Below are positions 6,947-49,153 of a DNA stretch of 60,741 bases, piece after piece. Source of the DNA: a virus (taxonomy: Duplodnaviria; Caudoviricetes); IMG/VR virus record IMGVR_UViG_3300035156_000099, positions 1 through 60,741 of that record. One strand, written 5' to 3'. How positions within the stretch are numbered: position 1 is the first letter of the stretch; each line of letters starts with the position of its first letter. The notes beneath the pieces are model-generated. The model saw only the letters and a list, made by a program, of their open reading frames with translations, was not told the DNA's origin and did not search any database. The translations under genes and the position numbers were made by a program.

Positions 6947-7231
6947 TCAATCACAAGACATGCGACTGTTGTTGTAGCCGTAGGCCTGGCAGTCGAAATG
7001 CGTCTTCGGGGGCGGCTGATACTGAGGAGCCTGCCTGATAATCACAACCGGTGGCGGCTGTTCGATTCCTGCGGCGATTCTGGCCTGACGTTCCGCGCGG
7101 GCGCGATCTACAGCTTCGCGGCGCTGCTTCTCGATACCCATTGAGCTGGTGCTGTCGGGAATGATTGTCAGCGTGCCGGCAGTGGCAGTGGCGCTCGCCA
7201 GCGCAAGGCAGATAAGAAGGATGTATTTCAC
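6947..7231 (-). CDS. Small exported protein (moron)
   Basis: GTG start, signal peptide KYILLICLALASATATAG, two C-terminal Cys. Confidence 0.6.
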   Translation of the reverse strand: MKYILLICLALASATATAGTLTIIPDSTSSMGIEKQRREAVDRARAERQARIAAGIEQPPPVVIIRQAPQYQPPPKTHFDCQAYGYNNSRMSCD

Positions 7232-7482
7232 GACCTGATCCTTGTCGATGGTGGGCGGCACAGTACGGATGCCAGTTATCACCACTATCGGCACGACGGT
7301 TTGGTTCTGAAGCCTGAAGCCTGAAGCCCAGTTATCACGTTTATCATGACAACTGGGCAACTGTGGTGATAATCACCATGGTTCAGCATTTGGATTGAGT
7401 AGCGAGGTTCCGTCCCAGGCGGCGACGGAACCTGCCAACACGCTCAGCGGGTTAGGAGTGTTATGACTGGGCGTAAAACCCG

Positions 7483-43980: not shown

Positions 43981-44190
43981 TTAAGCGGCGGATTTCTTGA
44001 GCGTCTGAACTGGGTCGTCTTCGCGCTTAGCGATAAGCGCCCCGCTCGACTCCTTCTCCAGAACGCATTGCATCGGGTAGGAGAAACCGCCGGTTGCTCG
44101 GCACTGAGATACGCGGCTGCCGGTCACGCCAAGGGCGTCGCCGATAGCGCGGCCAGTGCCAAAATGTTTCAGTGCTTCGTCGTAGGTCAT
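43981..44190 (-). CDS. cro: Cro repressor
   Basis: MTYDEALKHFG..IGDALGVT..RVSQ..S.GAL. Confidence 0.88.
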   Translation of the reverse strand: MTYDEALKHFGTGRAIGDALGVTGSRVSQCRATGGFSYPMQCVLEKESSGALIAKREDDPVQTLKKSAA

Positions 44191-44214: not shown

Positions 44215-44277
44215 AGTTTAGAGTTCTTAACAGCACAAGGCAAGTTATCTAAACAATGAATTGTTTAGAATCCTAAA
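44215..44277. promoter_or_regulatory. OR operators with PR and PRM
   Basis: Three TTWAG-N4-CTWAA-like sites (44217, 44240, 44264); PR TTGCCT-17-TAAACT on minus; PRM -10 TAGAAT 44266-44271. Confidence 0.75.
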
Positions 44278-44278
44278 T

Positions 44279-45106
44279 ATGGAATTCAAAGACCGTGTTA
44301 CCGCGCGCATGAAGGCTCTCAACCTCAACGCGACCGACATCAGCAAAATGACTGGCGTGTCTAAAGCGACGGTCAGTTTTTGGGTGAGCGGCACCAATGG
44401 GGCGAAGGGGAAGAACTTGCTGGCCTTAGCCAAGGCCCTGGATTGCTCGCCCGACTGGTTGTCTGATGGGGTTGGAGGCGTTGAGTCGAATCAGGTAGAC
44501 CATTCGAAGCCCGGAATGTCGACGGCAGATCTGGTCGCGCAGATGCTTTCTTCCAAGGCCGGCAAGAACCTTTCCGACAAAGCTCGCGAGACAATGCTTG
44601 CGGCGGCCGCCGAAGCGGACAGCTCCGTGGACACGGGCCAGCCCTATCAAGCCGCAAATTTTGCAGCGCTACGCCCCACCAATGAAGAAATCGTTATTCG
44701 CCAGTACGACATCCGCGCAGCGATGGGTCATGGCCAGGTGCCGCCTGACTACACCGAGGTGGTACGCAATCTCGTTGTGAGGGAAGAGATTCTGCGCGAG
44801 AAAGGCGTGACCTATACCTCGAAGACATCCTTGGCCATGATCAGTGGGTGGGGCCAGAGCATGGAAGGGACCATCAACGATAAAGACTTGGTGATCGTCG
44901 ACAAGGGCGTGCAGGACTTCATCGGTGATGGGATTTACGTGCTGACCTGGCACCAGGAGCTGTATATCAAGCGCGTGATGCGTCTGGACGAGGAGAATTA
45001 CCGGCTGATCTCAGACAATCAGCATTACGAGAACCAGACGGCGCGGATCGACGACGTAACGATTCATGCGAAGGTCCTGTTGGTATGGAACGCGCGCAAG
45101 ACTTAA
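44279..45106 (+). CDS. cI: CI repressor (HTH + S24 autopeptidase)
   Basis: N-terminal HTH, AAMG cleavage region, GQSMEG, YIKR. Confidence 0.95.
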   Translation: MEFKDRVTARMKALNLNATDISKMTGVSKATVSFWVSGTNGAKGKNLLALAKALDCSPDWLSDGVGGVESNQVDHSKPGMSTADLVAQMLSSKAGKNLSDKARETMLAAAAEADSSVDTGQPYQAANFAALRPTNEEIVIRQYDIRAAMGHGQVPPDYTEVVRNLVVREEILREKGVTYTSKTSLAMISGWGQSMEGTINDKDLVIVDKGVQDFIGDGIYVLTWHQELYIKRVMRLDEENYRLISDNQHYENQTARIDDVTIHAKVLLVWNARKT

Positions 45107-45156: not shown

Positions 45157-45477
45157 TTAGAAAGGCACGGCCTCCTCCACTGCGTCAAACTCTTCGCGCA
45201 CCTGGGCTCGGGGGTCATCCTCTGATGGGGCCTCCCACTTCAGCGTTACGGAGCAGTCTTCATCGTTGAAGGTCATCTCGATCCCATCTACTTCCGCGAT
45301 CGCGCCCATCACCTCGTCCCACTCCCTTTCGCCGTCAGTCTCCAGCTTGTGGATCGTCACCCACATCTGATCCTGAGCGCGCGGGCTATTGATCATGTTC
45401 GCCACCCTGAGGTTCAGGCGCTCTAGACCAGACATAGGCTTGCTTTCTTGAGGCTTTTTCTTCTCTGGGCGGGCCAT
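45157..45477 (-). CDS. DUF1654-like protein, SOS-regulated
   Basis: ERLNLRVANMINSPRAQ..W.TI..WDEVM; LexA box upstream. Confidence 0.8.
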   Translation of the reverse strand: MARPEKKKPQESKPMSGLERLNLRVANMINSPRAQDQMWVTIHKLETDGEREWDEVMGAIAEVDGIEMTFNDEDCSVTLKWEAPSEDDPRAQVREEFDAVEEAVPF

Positions 45478-45494
45478 CCACTTCTCCTTGGTTA

Positions 45495-45510
45495 CTGTAT
45501 GTATGTACAG
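45495..45510. promoter_or_regulatory. LexA (SOS) box
   Basis: CTGTATGTATGTACAG. Confidence 0.85.
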
Positions 45511-45591
45511 GTTTGTGGCGAGCTTAGCTGAACCTTTCTCGAACCGTAAGTCTTGACGGCTTGATCTGGGGGGCGTATTTGGCCGCACCGC

Positions 45592-45644
45592 TTGTTAAGT
45601 TTTCTAAAATAAGTGTTGACGAGCTTTGTTAAGTTTTCTAAATT
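45592..45644 (+). promoter_or_regulatory. OL operators and PL
   Basis: Exact 17-bp repeat TTGTTAAGTTTTCTAAA (45592, 45626); TTGACG-17-TAAATT. Confidence 0.85.
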
Positions 45645-45693
45645 AGGCCCATCGAAACGAATCAGCCCCTACCAAGGGCCTCACGGATCGACT

Positions 45694-45705
45694 CGCTCTT
45701 TCACA
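45694..45705 (+). promoter_or_regulatory. boxA-like antitermination element
   Basis: CGCTCTTTCACA about 45 nt after PL. Confidence 0.7.
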
Positions 45706-45965
45706 ATCTGGGAACCTCGCGACCGACTACCCCTTAACAGGTAAGCGCGAGCAACAAATAGTCGATCCCATGCCAGCTCTGGAACTGGCCGTGCTCACCA
45801 GATGTGAGTGCGCGAAACCACGCAAGCCAGCCAGCGAAGAACACCGAGTACGAAATGTGTGACGCAGGCCAAGAGAGGACTCAGGCGATGAGCGTGGTGG
45901 AGAAATAGATTTCACTGGCTGGCCTTGGCAACAGGGCCAGACGGGAAATCAACCGGAGCACGAAC

Positions 45966-46229: not shown

Positions 46230-46376
46230 GTAACTGACCATGCCAACCATCCCCCTACCCCCACAAGCATGGGGCTACTGACAGCAATCATTTCGCTGTA
46301 CGCCCTCGGGTTTGGGCTGATGGCGGTGTGGTCTTGATGCAATACTGCTCACATCGAAAACAGATTGGAGGTCCCA

Positions 46377-46646
46377 ATGGAAGCCAGCGAGTTTATGGAG
46401 CGGTTTCTTGCCACGGCGTGCACGTTCGGCGAGTGGAAAATCGTGAGGATTGCAGAAGAGCATCGCGGTGCCGAAGTGGTGCCCGGCTTCTGCTGGAAGG
46501 AGATCAGCGTCTCAGCGGATGACCCAGAACTGAGGTCTGGCTGGCTCTATTTTGCGATGGGAGGCGGCAAGTACTTGTTTGTCGAGTACATCGACATTTA
46601 CAGCGAAAGGCGACAGTGCTACGTGTCAGAAATGAAGCCCGATTGA
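46377..46646 (+). CDS. Hypothetical protein
   Basis: GGAGG RBS; followed by a terminator at 46635-46659. Confidence 0.6.
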   Translation: MEASEFMERFLATACTFGEWKIVRIAEEHRGAEVVPGFCWKEISVSADDPELRSGWLYFAMGGGKYLFVEYIDIYSERRQCYVSEMKPD

Positions 46647-46690
46647 ATCGGGCTTTTTTGTGCCTGAGGCATTCGCAAGAGTGCCCATCA

Positions 46691-46791
46691 GCTCTGCAAT
46701 CTCGCCGGAACGTGAATACCGGTTACCCGCCAGCCTGTCACGAGGCATTGAATACGGCGGGCTGAGGGTTCGCCCTCGGAGATTGCAGAGC
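46691..46791 (+). ncRNA. Four-way-junction structured RNA element
   Basis: 13-bp stem GCTCTGCAATCTC/GAGATTGCAGAGC enclosing three hairpins, one with a TTCG tetraloop. Confidence 0.6.
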
Positions 46792-46794
46792 GAT

Positions 46795-46991
46795 GCAGAT
46801 GAATGCCCGGGCTGACGGGCAAGTGGAAGACCTGAGGGATCGCGGGAATCGTGGCCGGTAAAGTGAGTAAGCGCCCAGATGGCCACGGCGAGTCCAGGAA
46901 TAAGCGGCTGAAACCTTCGCCCCGGTGAAACTCCGGTGTCACTAAGGCCGCTAATAGTCGTGCGGGATATCAGTACCCGTCATCTGCACCA
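46795..46991 (+). ncRNA. tRNA-like ncRNA with enlarged central domain and ACCA end
   Basis: 7-bp acceptor stem, D-like arm, 5-bp T-like arm, ACCA. Confidence 0.62.
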
Positions 46992-47014
46992 CCCATTCGA
47001 AAAGATAAGAAGCC

Positions 47015-47395
47015 ATGAAAACCAGAGTAAGCAGGAAATGTGAGCTCTGCGATTCGGGGTTCTCACCTTTGATCGCAGAGATTAATCGAGGCAAGGGCAG
47101 GTTTTGCTCCGCCCTTTGTGCAAATAGGGCGAGGGCATTAGCTAAAGCCGCGCCTATGGCGCACAGAAGGACGCCAGAGTTTAGAAGGACTGACGCTTAT
47201 GCCATCAGACAGCGAGATGTTCATCATCAGGTTGAATATGCACTTCAAAAAGGAACTCTTACAAAAAGATCCTGCGAGGTGTGCGGGGCAGAAAAAGTGG
47301 ATGGTCACCACGACGACTACAGCAAGCCGCTAGATGTCCGCTGGCTTTGCAGGCGACATCACCTTGAGCATCACCGCAAGAGTGATAAGTCATAG
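47015..47395 (+). CDS. HNH endonuclease-like protein with N-terminal Zn finger
   Basis: CELC..FCSALC; CEVCG..HHDDYSKPLDVRWLCRRHH. Confidence 0.85.
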   Translation: MKTRVSRKCELCDSGFSPLIAEINRGKGRFCSALCANRARALAKAAPMAHRRTPEFRRTDAYAIRQRDVHHQVEYALQKGTLTKRSCEVCGAEKVDGHHDDYSKPLDVRWLCRRHHLEHHRKSDKS

Positions 47396-48132: not shown

Positions 48133-48542
48133 ATGCCTTAGCCAAAGCGCAGTTCGAGTATGACAACCGCCTCCCGGTGGAACTCTGCTCGATCGCGGAA
48201 CGGGTTTGGATCGACGACGCGGCAGAGCAGCTGTTGCTCGGTGCCGACGTCAAGTTCAAGCGCTCCCTCCACTCTCCCCAGGGCGTGACCTACGAACAGT
48301 TCGCCGCTGCGGTGGATGAGTTTGTGATGGGCCAGCTCTCGGCCGCAGGCATCAGCAACTCAGTGCTGGGCCGACTGGTGCTGGCCGCCAAGCGCCGCGC
48401 ATCGTCAGACGCCTGCACTGCGGCCGCCGAGGCCCTGAACAGTCCCAACCCTGACGAGGCGTTACGCCAGATCGCGATCACGCTGCTGACGCCGCTGGCG
48501 AAAGATGCGCTGATTGCTCAAGCCGAGGATGAGCATCTATGA
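48129..48542 (+). CDS. Hypothetical protein
   Basis: Coupled ORF, AQFEYDNRLP. Confidence 0.7.
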   Translation: MNALAKAQFEYDNRLPVELCSIAERVWIDDAAEQLLLGADVKFKRSLHSPQGVTYEQFAAAVDEFVMGQLSAAGISNSVLGRLVLAAKRRASSDACTAAAEALNSPNPDEALRQIAITLLTPLAKDALIAQAEDEHL

Positions 48543-49153
48543 GGGTCAAGCGTACGCTTGTTTATGGAGTTGGTGTCAATGACGCCGATTACTGCGTCCA
48601 TGCCACCGAAAGGGTTAATGGCAGGCGAGTAACAAAGTTGACATGCCCTTTCTATGCAAAGTGGGTCAGCATGCTCGCTCGCTGTTATTCGGATCAGTTC
48701 AAGAGGAAACGCCCGACCTACAACGGATGCAGCGTCGCTGATGAGTGGCATGTATTTAGTCGCTTTAAATCCTGGATGGAAACCCAGGACTGGTGCGGAA
48801 AGGATTTAGATAAAGATCTGATCATTCGTGGGAATAAGGTTTACCAGCCTGATAGGTGCCTTTTCCTCAGTAGGCAGATAAATAGCTTTCTAGTTGAATG
48901 CGGAGCAGCAAGAGGCGATTGGCCGGTCGGAGTAAATTTTGACAAAAGTAAAAATAAGTTCCTGAGCCGATGCAATGATGTTCTAGCTAAGAAGCTTAAG
49001 TACCTTGGTTACTTTGACAGCCCAGATGAAGCGCATCAGTCGTGGCTTTCATTCAAACAAAAGCAGGCATCTATCTTAGCCTCCAATCAGGAGGATCCTC
49101 AGGTTGCCAAATACTTAGTAGCTTATTACGCATCCTATGGGAGCGAGCAATGA
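48539..49153 (+). CDS. HNH-like homing endonuclease with AP2-like C-terminus
   Basis: VYGVGVND, W.SML.RCY, EW..FS.F..W, LDKD, YLGYF; AT-rich. Confidence 0.85.
   Translation: MRVKRTLVYGVGVNDADYCVHATERVNGRRVTKLTCPFYAKWVSMLARCYSDQFKRKRPTYNGCSVADEWHVFSRFKSWMETQDWCGKDLDKDLIIRGNKVYQPDRCLFLSRQINSFLVECGAARGDWPVGVNFDKSKNKFLSRCNDVLAKKLKYLGYFDSPDEAHQSWLSFKQKQASILASNQEDPQVAKYLVAYYASYGSEQ

What the first reader, a model, noticed from the sequence alone, without database searches (positions are those of the whole stretch)
46795..46991. A 197-nt tRNA-shaped phage ncRNA with a CCA end, a complementary D/T-loop pair and a 140-nt domain in place of the anticodon arm
Seen: GCAGATG (46795-801) pairs with CATCTGC (46981-987), a 7-bp acceptor-like stem followed by ACCA (46988-991). 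A 5-bp T-like stem, GCGGG/CCCGT, abuts it, giving the 7+5 tRNA geometry, but its loop is 9 nt (ATATCAGTA) rather than TTCRA. A D-like arm, TGCCCG-GGCTGA-CGGGCA, follows the 5' strand. Its loop GCTGA can pair with TCAGT in the T-like loop (one G-U pair). Between the arms are two long helices (CCTG..CGTGGCC/GGCCACG..CAGG and AGCGGC..CCGG/CCGG..GCCGCT). No convincing ORF covers the region. Inference: an RNase P-processed, possibly aminoacylated tRNA mimic, organised like the tmRNA tRNA-like domain and made early from PL. It could be a decoy for anticodon nucleases or tRNA-sensing defence, or a scaffold/guide for the adjacent HNH. This is my best candidate for an undescribed system.
Basis: partly seen in the sequence, partly recalled or inferred. 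Interest (0 to 1): 0.85.

Follow-up and report, generated by a model that had tools for sequence, protein, structure and literature searches.

The report
Structured early-leader RNA of lambdoid phages
This is a real, conserved, folded non-coding RNA in the early-left operon of Pseudomonas and enterobacterial lambda-like phages, lying where phage lambda has its RNase III-cut N leader; it is tRNA-shaped but is not a chargeable tRNA mimic.

Summary
Alone the fold is unremarkable (z -1.48). Across 47 non-redundant relatives it is strongly supported: 94.6% of cells paired, 26 of 51 pairs changed on both sides, 0 of 500 shuffles as good. G-U pairs put it on the + strand.

ARAGORN and Rfam 15 find nothing.

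The ACCA tail is not conserved: NCCA follows the 7th closing pair in 4 of 77 modules. The closing helix is 6-19 bp. The HNH gene has no homologue in 55 related loci.

A conserved frame surrounds interchangeable cores: closing helix, AA spacer, hairpin with a GGCUGA loop, hairpin with a UCAGC loop.

In enterobacterial relatives the module lies between the nutL boxA and an N-like antiterminator gene. Some closing strands match the flanks of lambda's N-leader stem.

It also occurs beside tRNA genes. In one locus it appears to have its own promoter and terminator.

Best reading: a self-contained leader RNA module cut by host RNases. Its function is unproven.

The parts
45592..45644 (+). Context: PL-like promoter (TTGACG, 17-nt spacer, TAAATT) overlapped by two copies of a 17-nt operator-like repeat, TTGTTAAGTTTTCTAAA. 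It lies downstream of the cI-like gene (44261-45106) and reads towards the RNA.
   Evidence: Promoter scan. Sequence. cI-like and cro-like assignments.
45695..45706 (+). Context: boxA-like motif GCTCTTTCACAA, about 45 nt downstream of the promoter. A possible nutL. This is a weak lead only.
   Evidence: It is the only match in the window, but 0.41 matches are expected by chance and 33 of 100 shuffles have at least one. Lambda's boxA, CGCTCTTA, is seen.
46635..46659 (+). Terminator-like hairpin (AAGCCCGAT-TGA-ATCGGGCTT plus a T run) ending the upstream ORF 46365-46646. It lies immediately before the structured region.
   Evidence: Sequence. My own hairpin scan. It is the target of the weak Rfam terminator-type hits. 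The tool scan did not list it.
46665..46687 (+). 5' hairpin (GGCA-TTCGCAAGAG-TGCC core) that precedes domain 1. The same hairpin is seen in L037.
   Evidence: Fold. Upstream sequences.
46686..46794 (+). Domain 1. A cloverleaf with a 13-17 bp closing helix (GCTCTGCAATCTC with GAGATTGCAGAGC) and three hairpins, one being GAGGG-TTCG-CCCTC. It is an independent module: it occurs without domain 2 in L052-L055.
   Evidence: Fold. Ten copies are aligned by eye. Changes on both sides appear in the closing helix (L046), in hairpin 2 (GCCT/AGGC to GCCC/GGGC) and in hairpin 3 (GAGGG/CCCTC to GAGGT/ACCTC). No statistical test was run on domain 1.
46794..46988 (+). Domain 2, the reported finding. Closing helix 46795-46801 with 46981-46987 (T46794-A46988 optional), then the AA spacer 46802-46803.
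   Evidence: 6 of the 8 closing pairs change on both sides. The covariance model R1 finds a single copy in the window, 46785-47000, E = 9e-67.
46804..46821 (+). D-like hairpin: 6-bp stem and loop GGCTGA (46810-46815).
   Evidence: 3 of 6 pairs change on both sides, for example CG in 26 sequences and GC in 19 at one pair. The loop is nearly invariant.
46837..46895 (+). Helix P3: outer part 46837-46843 with 46888-46895, inner part 46850-46856 with 46881-46887, and a conserved apical loop containing GAGTAAGC.
   Evidence: Outer part: 4 of 7 pairs change on both sides and 99.4% of cells pair. Inner part: 75% of cells pair, because the alignment register slips in the enterobacterial rows.
46903..46952 (+). 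Helix P4 (46903-46909 with 46946-46952), enclosing the invariant hairpin P4a (46919-46939, loop TGAAACT).
   Evidence: P4: 6 of 7 pairs change on both sides. P4a: 6 of 6 pairs never vary. A 26-nt core pattern with one free position is shared by 84 viral contigs.
46962..46980 (+). T-like hairpin GCGGG-ATATCAGTA-CCCGT. It abuts the 3' closing strand with no spacer. Loop bases TCAGT are complementary to GCTGA of the D-like loop.
   Evidence: 3 of 5 stem pairs change on both sides, and the closing pair is G-U in 13 of 47. For the loop-loop helix, 4 of 5 pairs show no informative change (3 invariant, 1 with a single unpaired cell). The fifth is GC 41, GU 4, AU 1, broken 1.

Best explanation
The element is one self-contained module of a multi-module structured RNA, 46662-46988 on the + strand. 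It is transcribed as part of the early-left (PL-type) operon of a lambdoid Pseudomonas phage.

It belongs to a family built on a conserved frame:
- a closing helix that brings the 5' and 3' ends together;
- an AA spacer;
- a hairpin with a GGCUGA loop;
- a hairpin with a UCAGC loop that stacks directly on the closing helix.

Inside the frame sit interchangeable cores. This window has the long, sequence-conserved core.

Shown:
- The fold, the strand and the modularity.
- In enterobacterial phages the module lies between the nutL boxA and the ribosome-binding site of an N-like antiterminator gene.
- In some of those phages its closing strands and flanks are the same as those of lambda's N-leader stem.

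Inferred: host RNases cut at the closing helix, as is reported for lambda's N leader. I expect RNase III where the helix is 15-19 bp. Where it is 7-10 bp and stacked on the 5-6 bp T-like stem, RNase P or another endonuclease may cut.

Such cutting would release the module as a discrete RNA of about 200 nt. It would also uncouple what is upstream (the nut complex, a terminator) from the downstream message.

In this window the module is 1.1 kb from the promoter, just after a terminator, and just before an inserted HNH gene. Here, therefore, it probably acts as a portable processing or insulating module, or as an excised stable RNA. It probably does not control N translation here.
For: Structure:
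- RNAalifold predicts 38 pairs, 22 of them with changes on both sides.
- My structure of 51 pairs scores 94.6% paired. 26 pairs change on both sides. 0 of 500 shuffles match, and slid controls pair 24-41%.

Strand:
- G-U is the commonest pair at two positions, 39 of 47 and 47 of 47 sequences.
- The + strand folds better than the - strand.

Position in Pseudomonas phages, by tblastn against 55 loci:
- a cI homologue lies 1.7-4.5 kb upstream in 8 loci;
- a DUF1654/phrog_2707 ORF lies about 1 kb upstream in 12 loci (opposite strand in 10, same strand in 2);
- a phrog_4801 ORF lies 0.3-1.9 kb downstream in 27 loci.

Position in enterobacterial phages:
- L066 has a promoter with operators, then a PL start and boxA that are 94-96% identical to lambda-like phages annotated 'Nut boxA'.
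- After the module comes an ORF matching phrog_271, 'N-like' (E = 7e-4).
- IME10 has the same layout, and its ORF matches phrog_271 at E = 1e-36.
- At least 7 loci have an arginine-rich ORF starting 17-22 nt after the approximate module end used in the script.

Link to lambda:
- L075, L080 and L083 close with CTTTGGGGTGTGGTG and CACCACACCACCAAAG. Lambda has CTTTGGGGTGTGTG and CACACACCACCAAAG around its leader domain.
- Passages in PMC5725501 say that nutL lies about 200 bp upstream of N. They say that binding of N and Nus factors there represses N translation. They also say that the intervening leader is highly structured.
- PMC9032294 lists lambda N mRNA among the targets that RNase III regulates positively.

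Modularity:
- At least five core types share one frame: the long type, and the Aurca01, L044, IME10 and EhrS_59 types.
- Modules occur in tandem in L009, L060, L040 and L057.
Against: - No RNA ends were mapped. The only expression data are four short metatranscriptome contigs, which cannot show ends and could derive from DNA.
- RNase III or RNase P cleavage is inferred by analogy only. The 7-8 bp closing helix in this window is too short for a classical RNase III site.
- Lambda's own leader is not a member of this RNA family: model R1 finds no hit in it at E up to 1. The homology therefore covers position and flanks, not the core.
- In the window the boxA-like motif is not statistically significant, and no N-like gene was recognised.
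- The core is very conserved. A 26-nt pattern with one free position is shared by 84 viral contigs from hosts as far apart as Pseudomonas and Enterobacteriaceae. That is more than a mere processing site needs and points to a specific binding partner.
- Three other contexts fit a free-standing RNA gene better than a leader element. One is the L042 copy, which looks stand-alone. Another is the copies beside tRNA genes. The third is the terminators 25-230 nt downstream.
Confidence: 0.45

Rival explanations
1. It is a trans-acting stable early RNA. The module is an RNA gene in its own right, released from the early transcript or made from its own promoter. It binds a host factor conserved from Pseudomonas to Enterobacteriaceae. 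Candidates are an enzyme that processes or senses tRNA, a tRNA-targeting defence nuclease, or the transcription or translation machinery. The leader position would only be a convenient, very early expression site.
For: - L042 has a promoter-like site with an extended -10 at 6980-7007. The module follows at 7012-7208 and a terminator hairpin at 7219-7249.
- In L044 the module lies 177 nt after tRNA-Thr and tRNA-Asn on the same strand, with a terminator about 80 nt after it. In L050 a tRNA-Phe gene lies 53 nt after the module.
- In L075, L080 and L083 a terminator lies 25 nt after the module.
- The core is almost invariant while the flanking genes vary.
- The AA spacer and the direct stacking of the T-like stem on the closing helix resemble tRNA geometry.
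Against: - No partner is known, and no expression data show a discrete RNA.
- The promoter in L042 is only a consensus match. The scan expects 1.2 such sites in that stretch.
- Most copies have no recognisable promoter of their own. The window has none between the terminator and the module.
- The interchangeable cores argue against one fixed partner for the whole family.
Confidence: 0.28
2. It is a ligand- or factor-sensing leader (a riboswitch-like element) or a self-cleaving ribozyme. It would set early gene expression, and so the lysis-lysogeny choice, according to host physiology. That would replace the RNase III input of lambda.
For: - The core is ornate, with many invariant unpaired positions: 72 invariant positions in the alignment and an invariant hairpin P4a.
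- In N-encoding phages it lies directly upstream of the N ribosome-binding site.
- Terminators often follow it.
Against: - No known riboswitch or ribozyme family matches.
- No alternative expression-platform pairing was demonstrated.
- The same core occurs with unrelated downstream genes and in contexts that look stand-alone.
Confidence: 0.1
3. It is a put-like cis-acting antiterminator RNA. It would bind the RNA polymerase that made it and carry it through downstream terminators, as in phage HK022.
For: - It lies in the early leader, with terminators nearby both upstream and downstream.
- The start of the abstract of PMC9378689 describes put RNA acting alone on the polymerase. I saw only the search listing.
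Against: - There is only one copy in the window and none on the PR side. From recall, HK022 has put sites in both early operons.
- Relatives carry both a boxA and an N-like protein, so they already have a protein-based system.
- At about 200 nt it is much larger than put, and the stand-alone and tRNA-linked copies do not fit.
Confidence: 0.07
4. It is a genuine tRNA or tmRNA mimic: processed by RNase P to a 3' CCA end and aminoacylated.
For: - ACCA follows the 7-bp closing stem in the window.
- The geometry is 7 + 5 bp with a 2-nt spacer.
- Some upstream modules in relatives carry near-canonical tRNA D and T arms, as in domain 1 of L061.
- tRNA genes lie beside the module in 2 loci.
Against: - NCCA follows the 7th closing pair in 4 of 77 modules. 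The closing helix is 6-19 bp.
- There is no ARAGORN or Rfam hit for tRNA or tmRNA, even at E up to 10.
- The T-like loop is 7-12 nt and not of the canonical form.
- There is no anticodon arm, and no tag reading frame was sought or seen.
Confidence: 0.04
5. It is a DNA-level element rather than an RNA: a conserved linker for recombination between phage modules, or a single-strand initiation signal.
For: - Homology stops sharply at the module's 3' edge, where the flanks become mosaic.
- The junction words GCATCGG and CCGATGC recur at module borders.
Against: - Changes on both sides preserve pairing, not sequence.
- Frequent G-U pairs would be A-C mismatches on the other strand.
- The cores are swapped while the stems are kept.
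Confidence: 0.06

Closest known systems
Lambda N-leader structured domain, the RNase III-sensitive region between nutL and N
   Same: - It has the same place in the genome map in enterobacterial relatives: PL, then boxA/boxB, then a small hairpin, then a closed structured domain, then ACCAAAG, then the ribosome-binding site, then N.
- The closing strands and flanks are nearly identical in L075, L080 and L083.
- In both, a closing helix brings nutL close to the ribosome-binding site.
   Different: - Lambda's interior is a different RNA. It has no GGCUGA or UCAGC hairpins, and model R1 finds no hit in it at E up to 1.
- In this window the module is 1.1 kb from the promoter and precedes an HNH gene, not N.
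- Its closing helix is only 7-8 bp.
- RNase III cleavage of lambda's leader is known to me only from titles and passages citing Kameyama 1991 and Wilson 1997 and 2002. The originals were not held.
tRNA, and tRNA-like RNase P substrates of phages (P1 c4 and P4 CI RNAs; stable RNAs in the T4 tRNA cluster). The phage examples are recalled, not checked.
   Same: - A closing helix stacked on a 5-6 bp hairpin, a 2-nt spacer before the first hairpin, and two hairpin loops that could touch.
- Occasional linkage to tRNA genes.
   Different: - No tRNA or C4 model in Rfam matches.
- The closing helix varies in length, the T loop is not canonical, and CCA is not conserved.
- A core of 30-140 nt replaces the anticodon arm.
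DicF, an sRNA processed out of the early-left type dicB operon of a lambdoid prophage
   Same: [quoted passage not shown] I saw this only as a reference title in PMC12197685.
   Different: DicF is a short base-pairing sRNA (53 nt by recall) and is unrelated in sequence. No Rfam DicF hit was found here.
Bacterial Y RNA-like YrlA RNAs (tRNA mimics on a long stem)
   Same: A modular RNA with a long closing stem and a tRNA-like domain. Examples here are domain 1 of L061, L009 and L060, with 19-bp closing helices. For PMC4201824 I saw only the search listing and the start of the abstract.
   Different: - No Rfam hit.
- No Ro/Rsr gene was looked for.
- By recall, the entering stem of YrlA corresponds to the anticodon stem, not the acceptor stem.
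phi29 packaging RNA, and the multimer-forming ornate phage RNAs ROOL and GOLLD (recalled)
   Same: A closing helix plus two loops that are complementary to each other. Such loops could pair between molecules or between tandem modules rather than within one module.
   Different: There is no sequence or Rfam relation. The genomic place is different (early leader, not the packaging region). Multimerisation is pure conjecture here.

Membership tests
tRNA | Recognised by tRNA detectors | tested here: not met
   ARAGORN finds 0 genes in the window. The Rfam tRNA model gives no hit at gathering score or at E up to 10 on 46600-47100. In 9 related loci only true tRNA genes elsewhere were found.
tRNA | 7-bp acceptor stem stacked on a 5-bp T stem, with a 2-nt link to the D arm | tested here: inconclusive
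   Met in the window. In 77 modules the spacer is AA in 75. The 2-nt length and the absence of a 3' spacer were required by the detector. The closing helix is 6-19 bp, and exactly 7 bp in 39.
tRNA | Canonical 7-nt T loop, anticodon arm, and an encoded or conserved 3' CCA | tested here: not met
   The T-like loop is 9 nt here and 7-12 nt elsewhere. A domain of 30-140 nt replaces the anticodon arm. NCCA follows the 7th pair in 4 of 77 modules. The canonical loop form is recalled, not taken from a call.
tmRNA | tRNA-like domain plus a tag reading frame, detectable by ARAGORN or Rfam | tested here: not met
   ARAGORN reports no tmRNA. No Rfam tmRNA hit. I did not search for a tag frame separately.
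Lambda-type N leader (structured domain between nutL and N) | Lies on the PL transcript between boxA/boxB and the start of an N-like gene | tested here: inconclusive
   Met in relatives: L066 and IME10, and at least 7 loci with an arginine-rich ORF 17-22 nt after the module. In the window only partly met. It is on the PL-side strand but 1.1 kb from a non-significant boxA-like motif, and it is followed by an HNH gene.
Lambda-type N leader (structured domain between nutL and N) | Sequence or structure homology with lambda's leader domain | tested here: not met
   The flanks and closing strands are shared with L075, L080 and L083. The interior is not: R1 finds no hit in the lambda locus L107 at E up to 1.
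Lambda-type N leader (structured domain between nutL and N) | Cleaved by RNase III, with an effect on N translation | not testable with these tools
   Needs RNA end mapping in rnc+ and rnc- hosts, and reporter fusions.
HK022 put RNA | Copies in both early operons; acts without an N protein | tested here: not met
   R1 finds a single copy in the window. Relatives encode N-like proteins. The two-copy rule is recalled.
Any Rfam 15 family | Match at the gathering score | tested here: not met
   0 matches in the window. Only terminator-type noise at E up to 10. Nothing on the modules of 9 related loci at E up to 1.
RNase P RNA (mimic of its conserved regions) | Local sequence likeness beyond chance | tested here: not met
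   I made local alignments of three module types against rnpB of a Pseudomonas and of the Dryocola genome. Scores were 16-24 against shuffle means of 17-19. Between 9 and 265 of 300 shuffles scored at least as high.

The most novel reading that the evidence does not exclude
A widespread, so far unnamed class of phage RNA. It is a tRNA-shaped frame: a closing helix, an AA spacer, and two hairpins with complementary loops. The frame carries interchangeable ornate cores. It would be made as the very first transcript from PL and excised by host RNases in the way rRNA and tRNA precursors are. The upstream boxA-Nus complex would act as a folding chaperone, as has been proposed for rRNA operons. The released RNA would act in trans on a host component conserved from Pseudomonas to Enterobacteriaceae, for example as a decoy or inhibitor of a tRNA-directed defence or processing enzyme. 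The diversity of cores would reflect an arms race.
Probability: 0.22. Interest if true: 0.85.

Novelty: new variant of a known kind. Interest (0 to 1): 0.6.

Why it matters
The leader between nutL and N is one of the most studied regulatory stretches in molecular biology, yet only lambda's own version has been examined.

This work shows that many lambda-like phages carry a different RNA in that place. It is far more conserved than lambda's, it is tRNA-shaped, and no Rfam model or genome annotation recognises it. These phages include:
- phages of the Pseudomonas fluorescens group and of Erwinia;
- related frame modules in phages of Klebsiella and Edwardsiella;
- prophages in 154 of 5426 complete E. 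coli genomes, which carry a related frame with another core.

Prevalence among species genomes:
- 21 of 401 sampled Pseudomonas genomes have a match, 15 of them over 130 nt or more.
- 13 of 401 Enterobacteriaceae genomes have a match, 2 of them long.

If the RNA is excised, it is a candidate first-wave phage RNA with a host target. If it acts in cis, it is a new input into the N-dependent lysis-lysogeny switch.

Either way it gives a defined, testable RNA family, with a covariance model and cultured phages (IME10, Gally, Erwinia vB_EhrS_59, Pseudomonas Aurca01) in which to test it.

Tried and rejected
- tRNA or tmRNA: ARAGORN found none in the window, and none overlapping a module in 55 loci.
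- Rfam: nothing at gathering score or at permissive E-values.
- HNH partnership: tblastn of the 47015-47395 product found 0 hits in 55 loci. The HNH gene is an insertion specific to this window.
- Opposite strand: it folds worse and would turn the frequent G-U pairs into A-C mismatches.
- Coding: three overlapping ORFs match no PHROG or Pfam family. Cores of different lengths, and 1-nt deletions in some copies, are incompatible with a conserved frame.
- Second copy in the window, as put would have: R1 finds only 46785-47000. The other hit has E = 4.7.
- RNase P RNA mimicry, an idea from recalled motif likeness: local alignment scores were within the shuffles.
- Loop-loop pairing: it cannot be settled. 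4 of the 5 pairs show no informative change, and the fifth gives one A-U change (L085) against one A-C mismatch (L093). A 5-bp Watson-Crick helix within one module also looks sterically strained to me, because the two hairpin bases are only 2 nt apart. That is inference, not a computation.
- Expression: the look-up of sequencing runs gave only runs holding small shares, 0.05-0.11. Read laying on four RNA-library runs from four studies laid one short contig each, of 158-274 nt. These covered 46764, 46791, 46795 or 46827 through 46963 and then diverged towards the commoner T-arm variant. Contigs show neither ends nor strand, and DNA carry-over is possible.
- boxA in the window: one match against 0.41 expected by chance, so not significant.
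- Terminator census: this was my own crude script. It missed known cases (L042, L067) and gave wrong distances for two loci with short flanks (L072, L103). Its counts (31 of 89 downstream, 8 of 92 upstream) are rough.
- Literature: six searches found no description of this RNA. This covers only the open-access library. Supplements were closed and may hold relevant sRNA lists.
- Not used: complex prediction, structure prediction, the search for homologous proteins, the search of protein representatives, the protein-atlas search.
Full report
WHAT IS THERE

The window is a complete 60.7-kb virus record.
- Structural genes lie on the - strand up to about 43 kb.
- A cro-like gene (43981-44190, -) and a cI-like gene (44261-45106, +) follow.
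- Next is a DUF1654 gene on the - strand (45157-45588).
- Next is a promoter-like site, TTGACG-17-TAAATT at 45616-45644. It is overlapped by two copies of a 17-nt operator-like repeat.
- From there a + strand operon of small genes runs rightward.

The finding lies in a 368-nt gap, 46647-47014. The gap is bounded by the terminator-like hairpin of ORF 46365-46646 and by a 126-aa HNH endonuclease gene (47015-47395; phrog_2340).

THE OBSERVATION

The minimum-energy fold reproduces the whole layout.

Alone this is weak: z = -1.48, and 13 of 200 shuffles fold as well.

The region is larger than reported. 46662-46991 folds into three parts with z = -4.04, and 0 of 100 shuffles fold as well:
- a 5' hairpin;
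- a cloverleaf 'domain 1' (46686-46794) with a 13-17 bp closing helix;
- the reported 'domain 2' (46794-46988).

RELATIVES

- An exact 30-mer of the 5' end occurs in 30 viral contigs.
- A pattern with the D-stem bases left free occurs in 49.
- A 26-nt core pattern with one free position occurs in 84.
- A genome scan found 10 contigs: 9 from Pseudomonas (baetica, trivialis, antarctica, poae, iridis, parakoreensis and others) and one from Dryocola clanedunensis, an enterobacterium.
- By BLAST, 21 of 401 sampled Pseudomonas species genomes have a match, 15 of them over 130 nt or more.
- 13 of 401 Enterobacteriaceae genomes have a match. 2 are long. The other 11 match only the frame ends.
- Among cultured phages, Aurca01 carries domain 1 plus a short-core version of domain 2, in an unannotated 925-nt gap.

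COVARIATION

From 91 module windows (83 unique) I kept 47 at under 97.5% likeness and aligned them (A1).

RNAalifold predicts 38 pairs, and 22 of them have changes on both sides.

For my structure of 51 pairs:
- 94.6% of cells pair, against 83.3% in shuffles.
- 26 pairs change on both sides, against a shuffle mean of 18.5.
- 239 cells change on both sides, against 63.
- 0 of 500 shuffles reach any measure. Slid controls pair 24-41%.

Pairs with changes on both sides, by helix:

| Helix | Pairs changed on both sides |
|---|---|
| Closing helix | 6 of 8 |
| D-like stem | 3 of 6 |
| P3, outer part | 4 of 7 |
| P4 | 6 of 7 |
| T-like stem | 3 of 5 |
| P4a | 0 of 6 (invariant) |

The inner part of P3 pairs in only 75% of cells, because the alignment register slips in the enterobacterial rows.

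G-U is the commonest pair at two positions (39 of 47 and 47 of 47). The RNA is therefore read from the + strand.

This is a real structured RNA.

WHAT IS NOT CONSERVED

Homology stops right after the 3' closing strand, and the tails differ.

A stricter detector found 77 modules in 75 of 108 sources:
- NCCA follows the 7th closing pair in 4 of them.
- The closing helix is 6, 7, 8, 9, 10 or 19 bp long, in 1, 39, 13, 14, 8 and 2 modules respectively.
- In the window T46794-A46988 can add an 8th pair.
- The spacer is AA in 75 of 77. The detector itself required a 2-nt 5' spacer and no 3' spacer.

The HNH product has no homologue in 55 related loci.

MODULARITY

One frame surrounds at least five different cores. 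The frame is the closing helix, the AA spacer, the hairpin with a GGCUGA loop and the hairpin with a UCAGC loop. The cores are:
- the long conserved one, as here;
- the Aurca01 type (135 nt in all);
- the L044 type (106 nt);
- the IME10 type (146 nt);
- the Erwinia vB_EhrS_59 type (111 nt).

The covariance model R1 recognises these frame-only relatives at E from 1e-16 to 7e-5.

Modules also stand in tandem:
- L009 and L060 have a 19-bp-stem module before the long one.
- L040 has two modules.
- L057 has one before the long module.

Many Pseudomonas loci carry a 45-nt linker hairpin between modules, which the window lacks.

Domain 1 of the window type occurs without domain 2 in L052-L055.

Some upstream modules, such as the one in L061, carry near-canonical tRNA D and T arms. 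Neither ARAGORN nor the Rfam tRNA model accepts them.

WHERE IT LIES

In Pseudomonas phages the place is conserved. By tblastn against 55 loci:
- a cI homologue lies 1.7-4.5 kb upstream in 8 loci;
- the DUF1654 ORF lies about 1 kb upstream in 12 (opposite strand in 10, same strand in 2);
- a phrog_4801 ORF lies 0.3-1.9 kb downstream in 27.

The enterobacterial copies are the informative ones. The Dryocola locus reads as follows:
- operator-like repeats and a TTGCTA-17-TATTAT promoter (my reading of the sequence);
- a transcript start and a boxA that are 94-96% identical to lambda-like phages, where this stretch is annotated 'putative Nut boxA site';
- two small hairpins;
- the module;
- about 28 nt later, an ORF with an arginine-rich N terminus that matches phrog_271, 'anti-termination protein N-like' (E = 7e-4).

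Phage IME10 has the same order. Its ORF is N, by phrog_271 at E = 1e-36 and by tblastn to annotated N genes.

At least 7 loci have such an ORF 17-22 nt after the approximate module end used in the script. Part of that output was cut.

THE LINK TO LAMBDA

I fetched lambda's leader.
- Between boxB and the N ribosome-binding site, lambda has a domain closed by CTTTGGGGTGTGTG and CACACACCACCAAAG.
- L075, L080 and L083 close the present module with CTTTGGGGTGTGGTG and CACCACACCACCAAAG.
- The Pseudomonas long-stem modules begin with GGGGTGTGATCTG.

The family therefore occupies the same slot as lambda's N-leader domain, with homologous flanks. Lambda's interior is different, and R1 does not match it.

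What is known about that slot comes from citing papers.
- Passages in PMC5725501 say that nutL is about 200 bp upstream of N. They say that N and Nus factors bound there repress N translation. [quoted passage not shown]
- PMC9032294 lists lambda N mRNA among the messages that RNase III regulates positively.
- The original papers were not held.

OTHER CONTEXTS

- In L042 a promoter-like site with an extended -10 ends 5 nt before the module. A terminator hairpin starts 11 nt after it.
- In L044 the module follows tRNA-Thr and tRNA-Asn by 177 nt and precedes a terminator.
- In L050 it precedes tRNA-Phe by 53 nt.
- In L075, L080 and L083 a terminator lies 25 nt downstream.
- By my crude scan, at least 31 of 89 loci have a terminator-like hairpin within 300 nt downstream.

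These contexts favour a portable unit, perhaps a released RNA.

HOW IT MOST LIKELY WORKS

Shown:
- a + strand RNA module with its ends clamped together;
- its place in the early-left transcript;
- its homology of position with lambda's RNase III-sensitive leader.

Inferred: host RNases cut at the closing helix.
- RNase III is plausible for the 15-19 bp helices of the enterobacterial and long-stem Pseudomonas copies.
- RNase P or another enzyme is plausible for the 7-10 bp helices stacked on the T-like stem.
- Cutting would release the module and separate upstream from downstream RNA.

I give 0.45 to this processed-leader-module reading. The rivals get:

| Rival reading | Confidence |
|---|---|
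| The released RNA has its own trans function | 0.28 |
| Sensor or ribozyme | 0.10 |
| put-like antiterminator | 0.07 |
| DNA-level element | 0.06 |
| Charged tRNA mimic | 0.04 |

The loop-loop pairing is conserved, but covariation does not demonstrate it.

NOVELTY

- No Rfam 15 family matches.
- No RNA feature is annotated at the matching places in the cultured phages.
- None is annotated among the listed rows for the 154 of 5426 complete E. coli genomes that carry the IME10-type module.
- The long core is nearly absent from E. coli: 1 partial hit in 5426 genomes.
- Six literature searches found no description.

I rate it a new variant of a known kind: a structured early-leader or N-leader RNA with tRNA-like processing features. 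Its function is open.

LIMITS

- No RNA ends or expression levels are available.
- Only four short metatranscriptome contigs touch the module.

Noticed in passing
window 47015-47395 and 48539-49153: There are two free-standing HNH endonuclease genes in the early-left operon (phrog_2340, and phrog_953 at E = 3e-79). The first starts 26 nt after the RNA module and has no homologue in 55 related loci. It looks like a recent insertion at the module's 3' border.
   Followed up: partly
window 45592-45706: PL-like promoter with two 17-nt operator-like repeats, and a boxA-like GCTCTTTCACAA about 45 nt downstream. No boxB or N-like gene was recognised in the window. The boxA match alone is not significant (0.41 expected by chance).
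   Followed up: partly
L067:9811-9816; L001:3586-3594; L061 (downstream of the module): Minimal ORFs with a good ribosome-binding site follow the modules in several Pseudomonas loci: ATG-TAA, and ATG-AAG-TAA. In L067 a terminator-like hairpin comes next. They may be start-stop regulatory elements.
   Followed up: no
Many Pseudomonas loci, 15-140 nt downstream of the module (for example L012, L014, L059, L063): A further conserved stretch of about 60 nt is open in all three frames in my ORF list. It contains nested inverted repeats (ATGCACTC...GAGTGCAT around CTCCGC...GCGGAG). It is probably another structured RNA module of the same leader.
   Followed up: no
L003-L051, between domain 1 and domain 2: A 45-nt linker hairpin (GATGCGG...CCTGCATC, enclosing GCGG-CCTATAA-CCGC). 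Its inner stem changes on both sides in the Aurca01 type (CCAGC/GCTGG). Its 5' strand overlaps the 3' closing strand of domain 1, so the two pairings exclude each other. It is absent from the window.
   Followed up: partly
L061, L015, L017 (upstream module): A module with a long closing helix holds a near-canonical tRNA D arm and a T-like arm around an insert of about 50 nt. ARAGORN does not call it in any of the three, and the Rfam tRNA model does not call it in L061 or L017 (L015 was not scanned). This suggests that some modules derive from tRNA genes.
   Followed up: partly
L042:6980-7249: A copy of the long module appears to be a stand-alone gene: a promoter-like site with an extended -10, a 197-nt module, and a terminator. 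Its sequence variants and its 3' flank are the closest to the window's copy.
   Followed up: partly
window 46635-46669 and L042:7219-7262: The terminator upstream of the window's structured region and the terminator downstream of the L042 module end in the same words, GGGCTTTTTTGTGCCTG. This could be chance, or a trace of how the module was moved.
   Followed up: no
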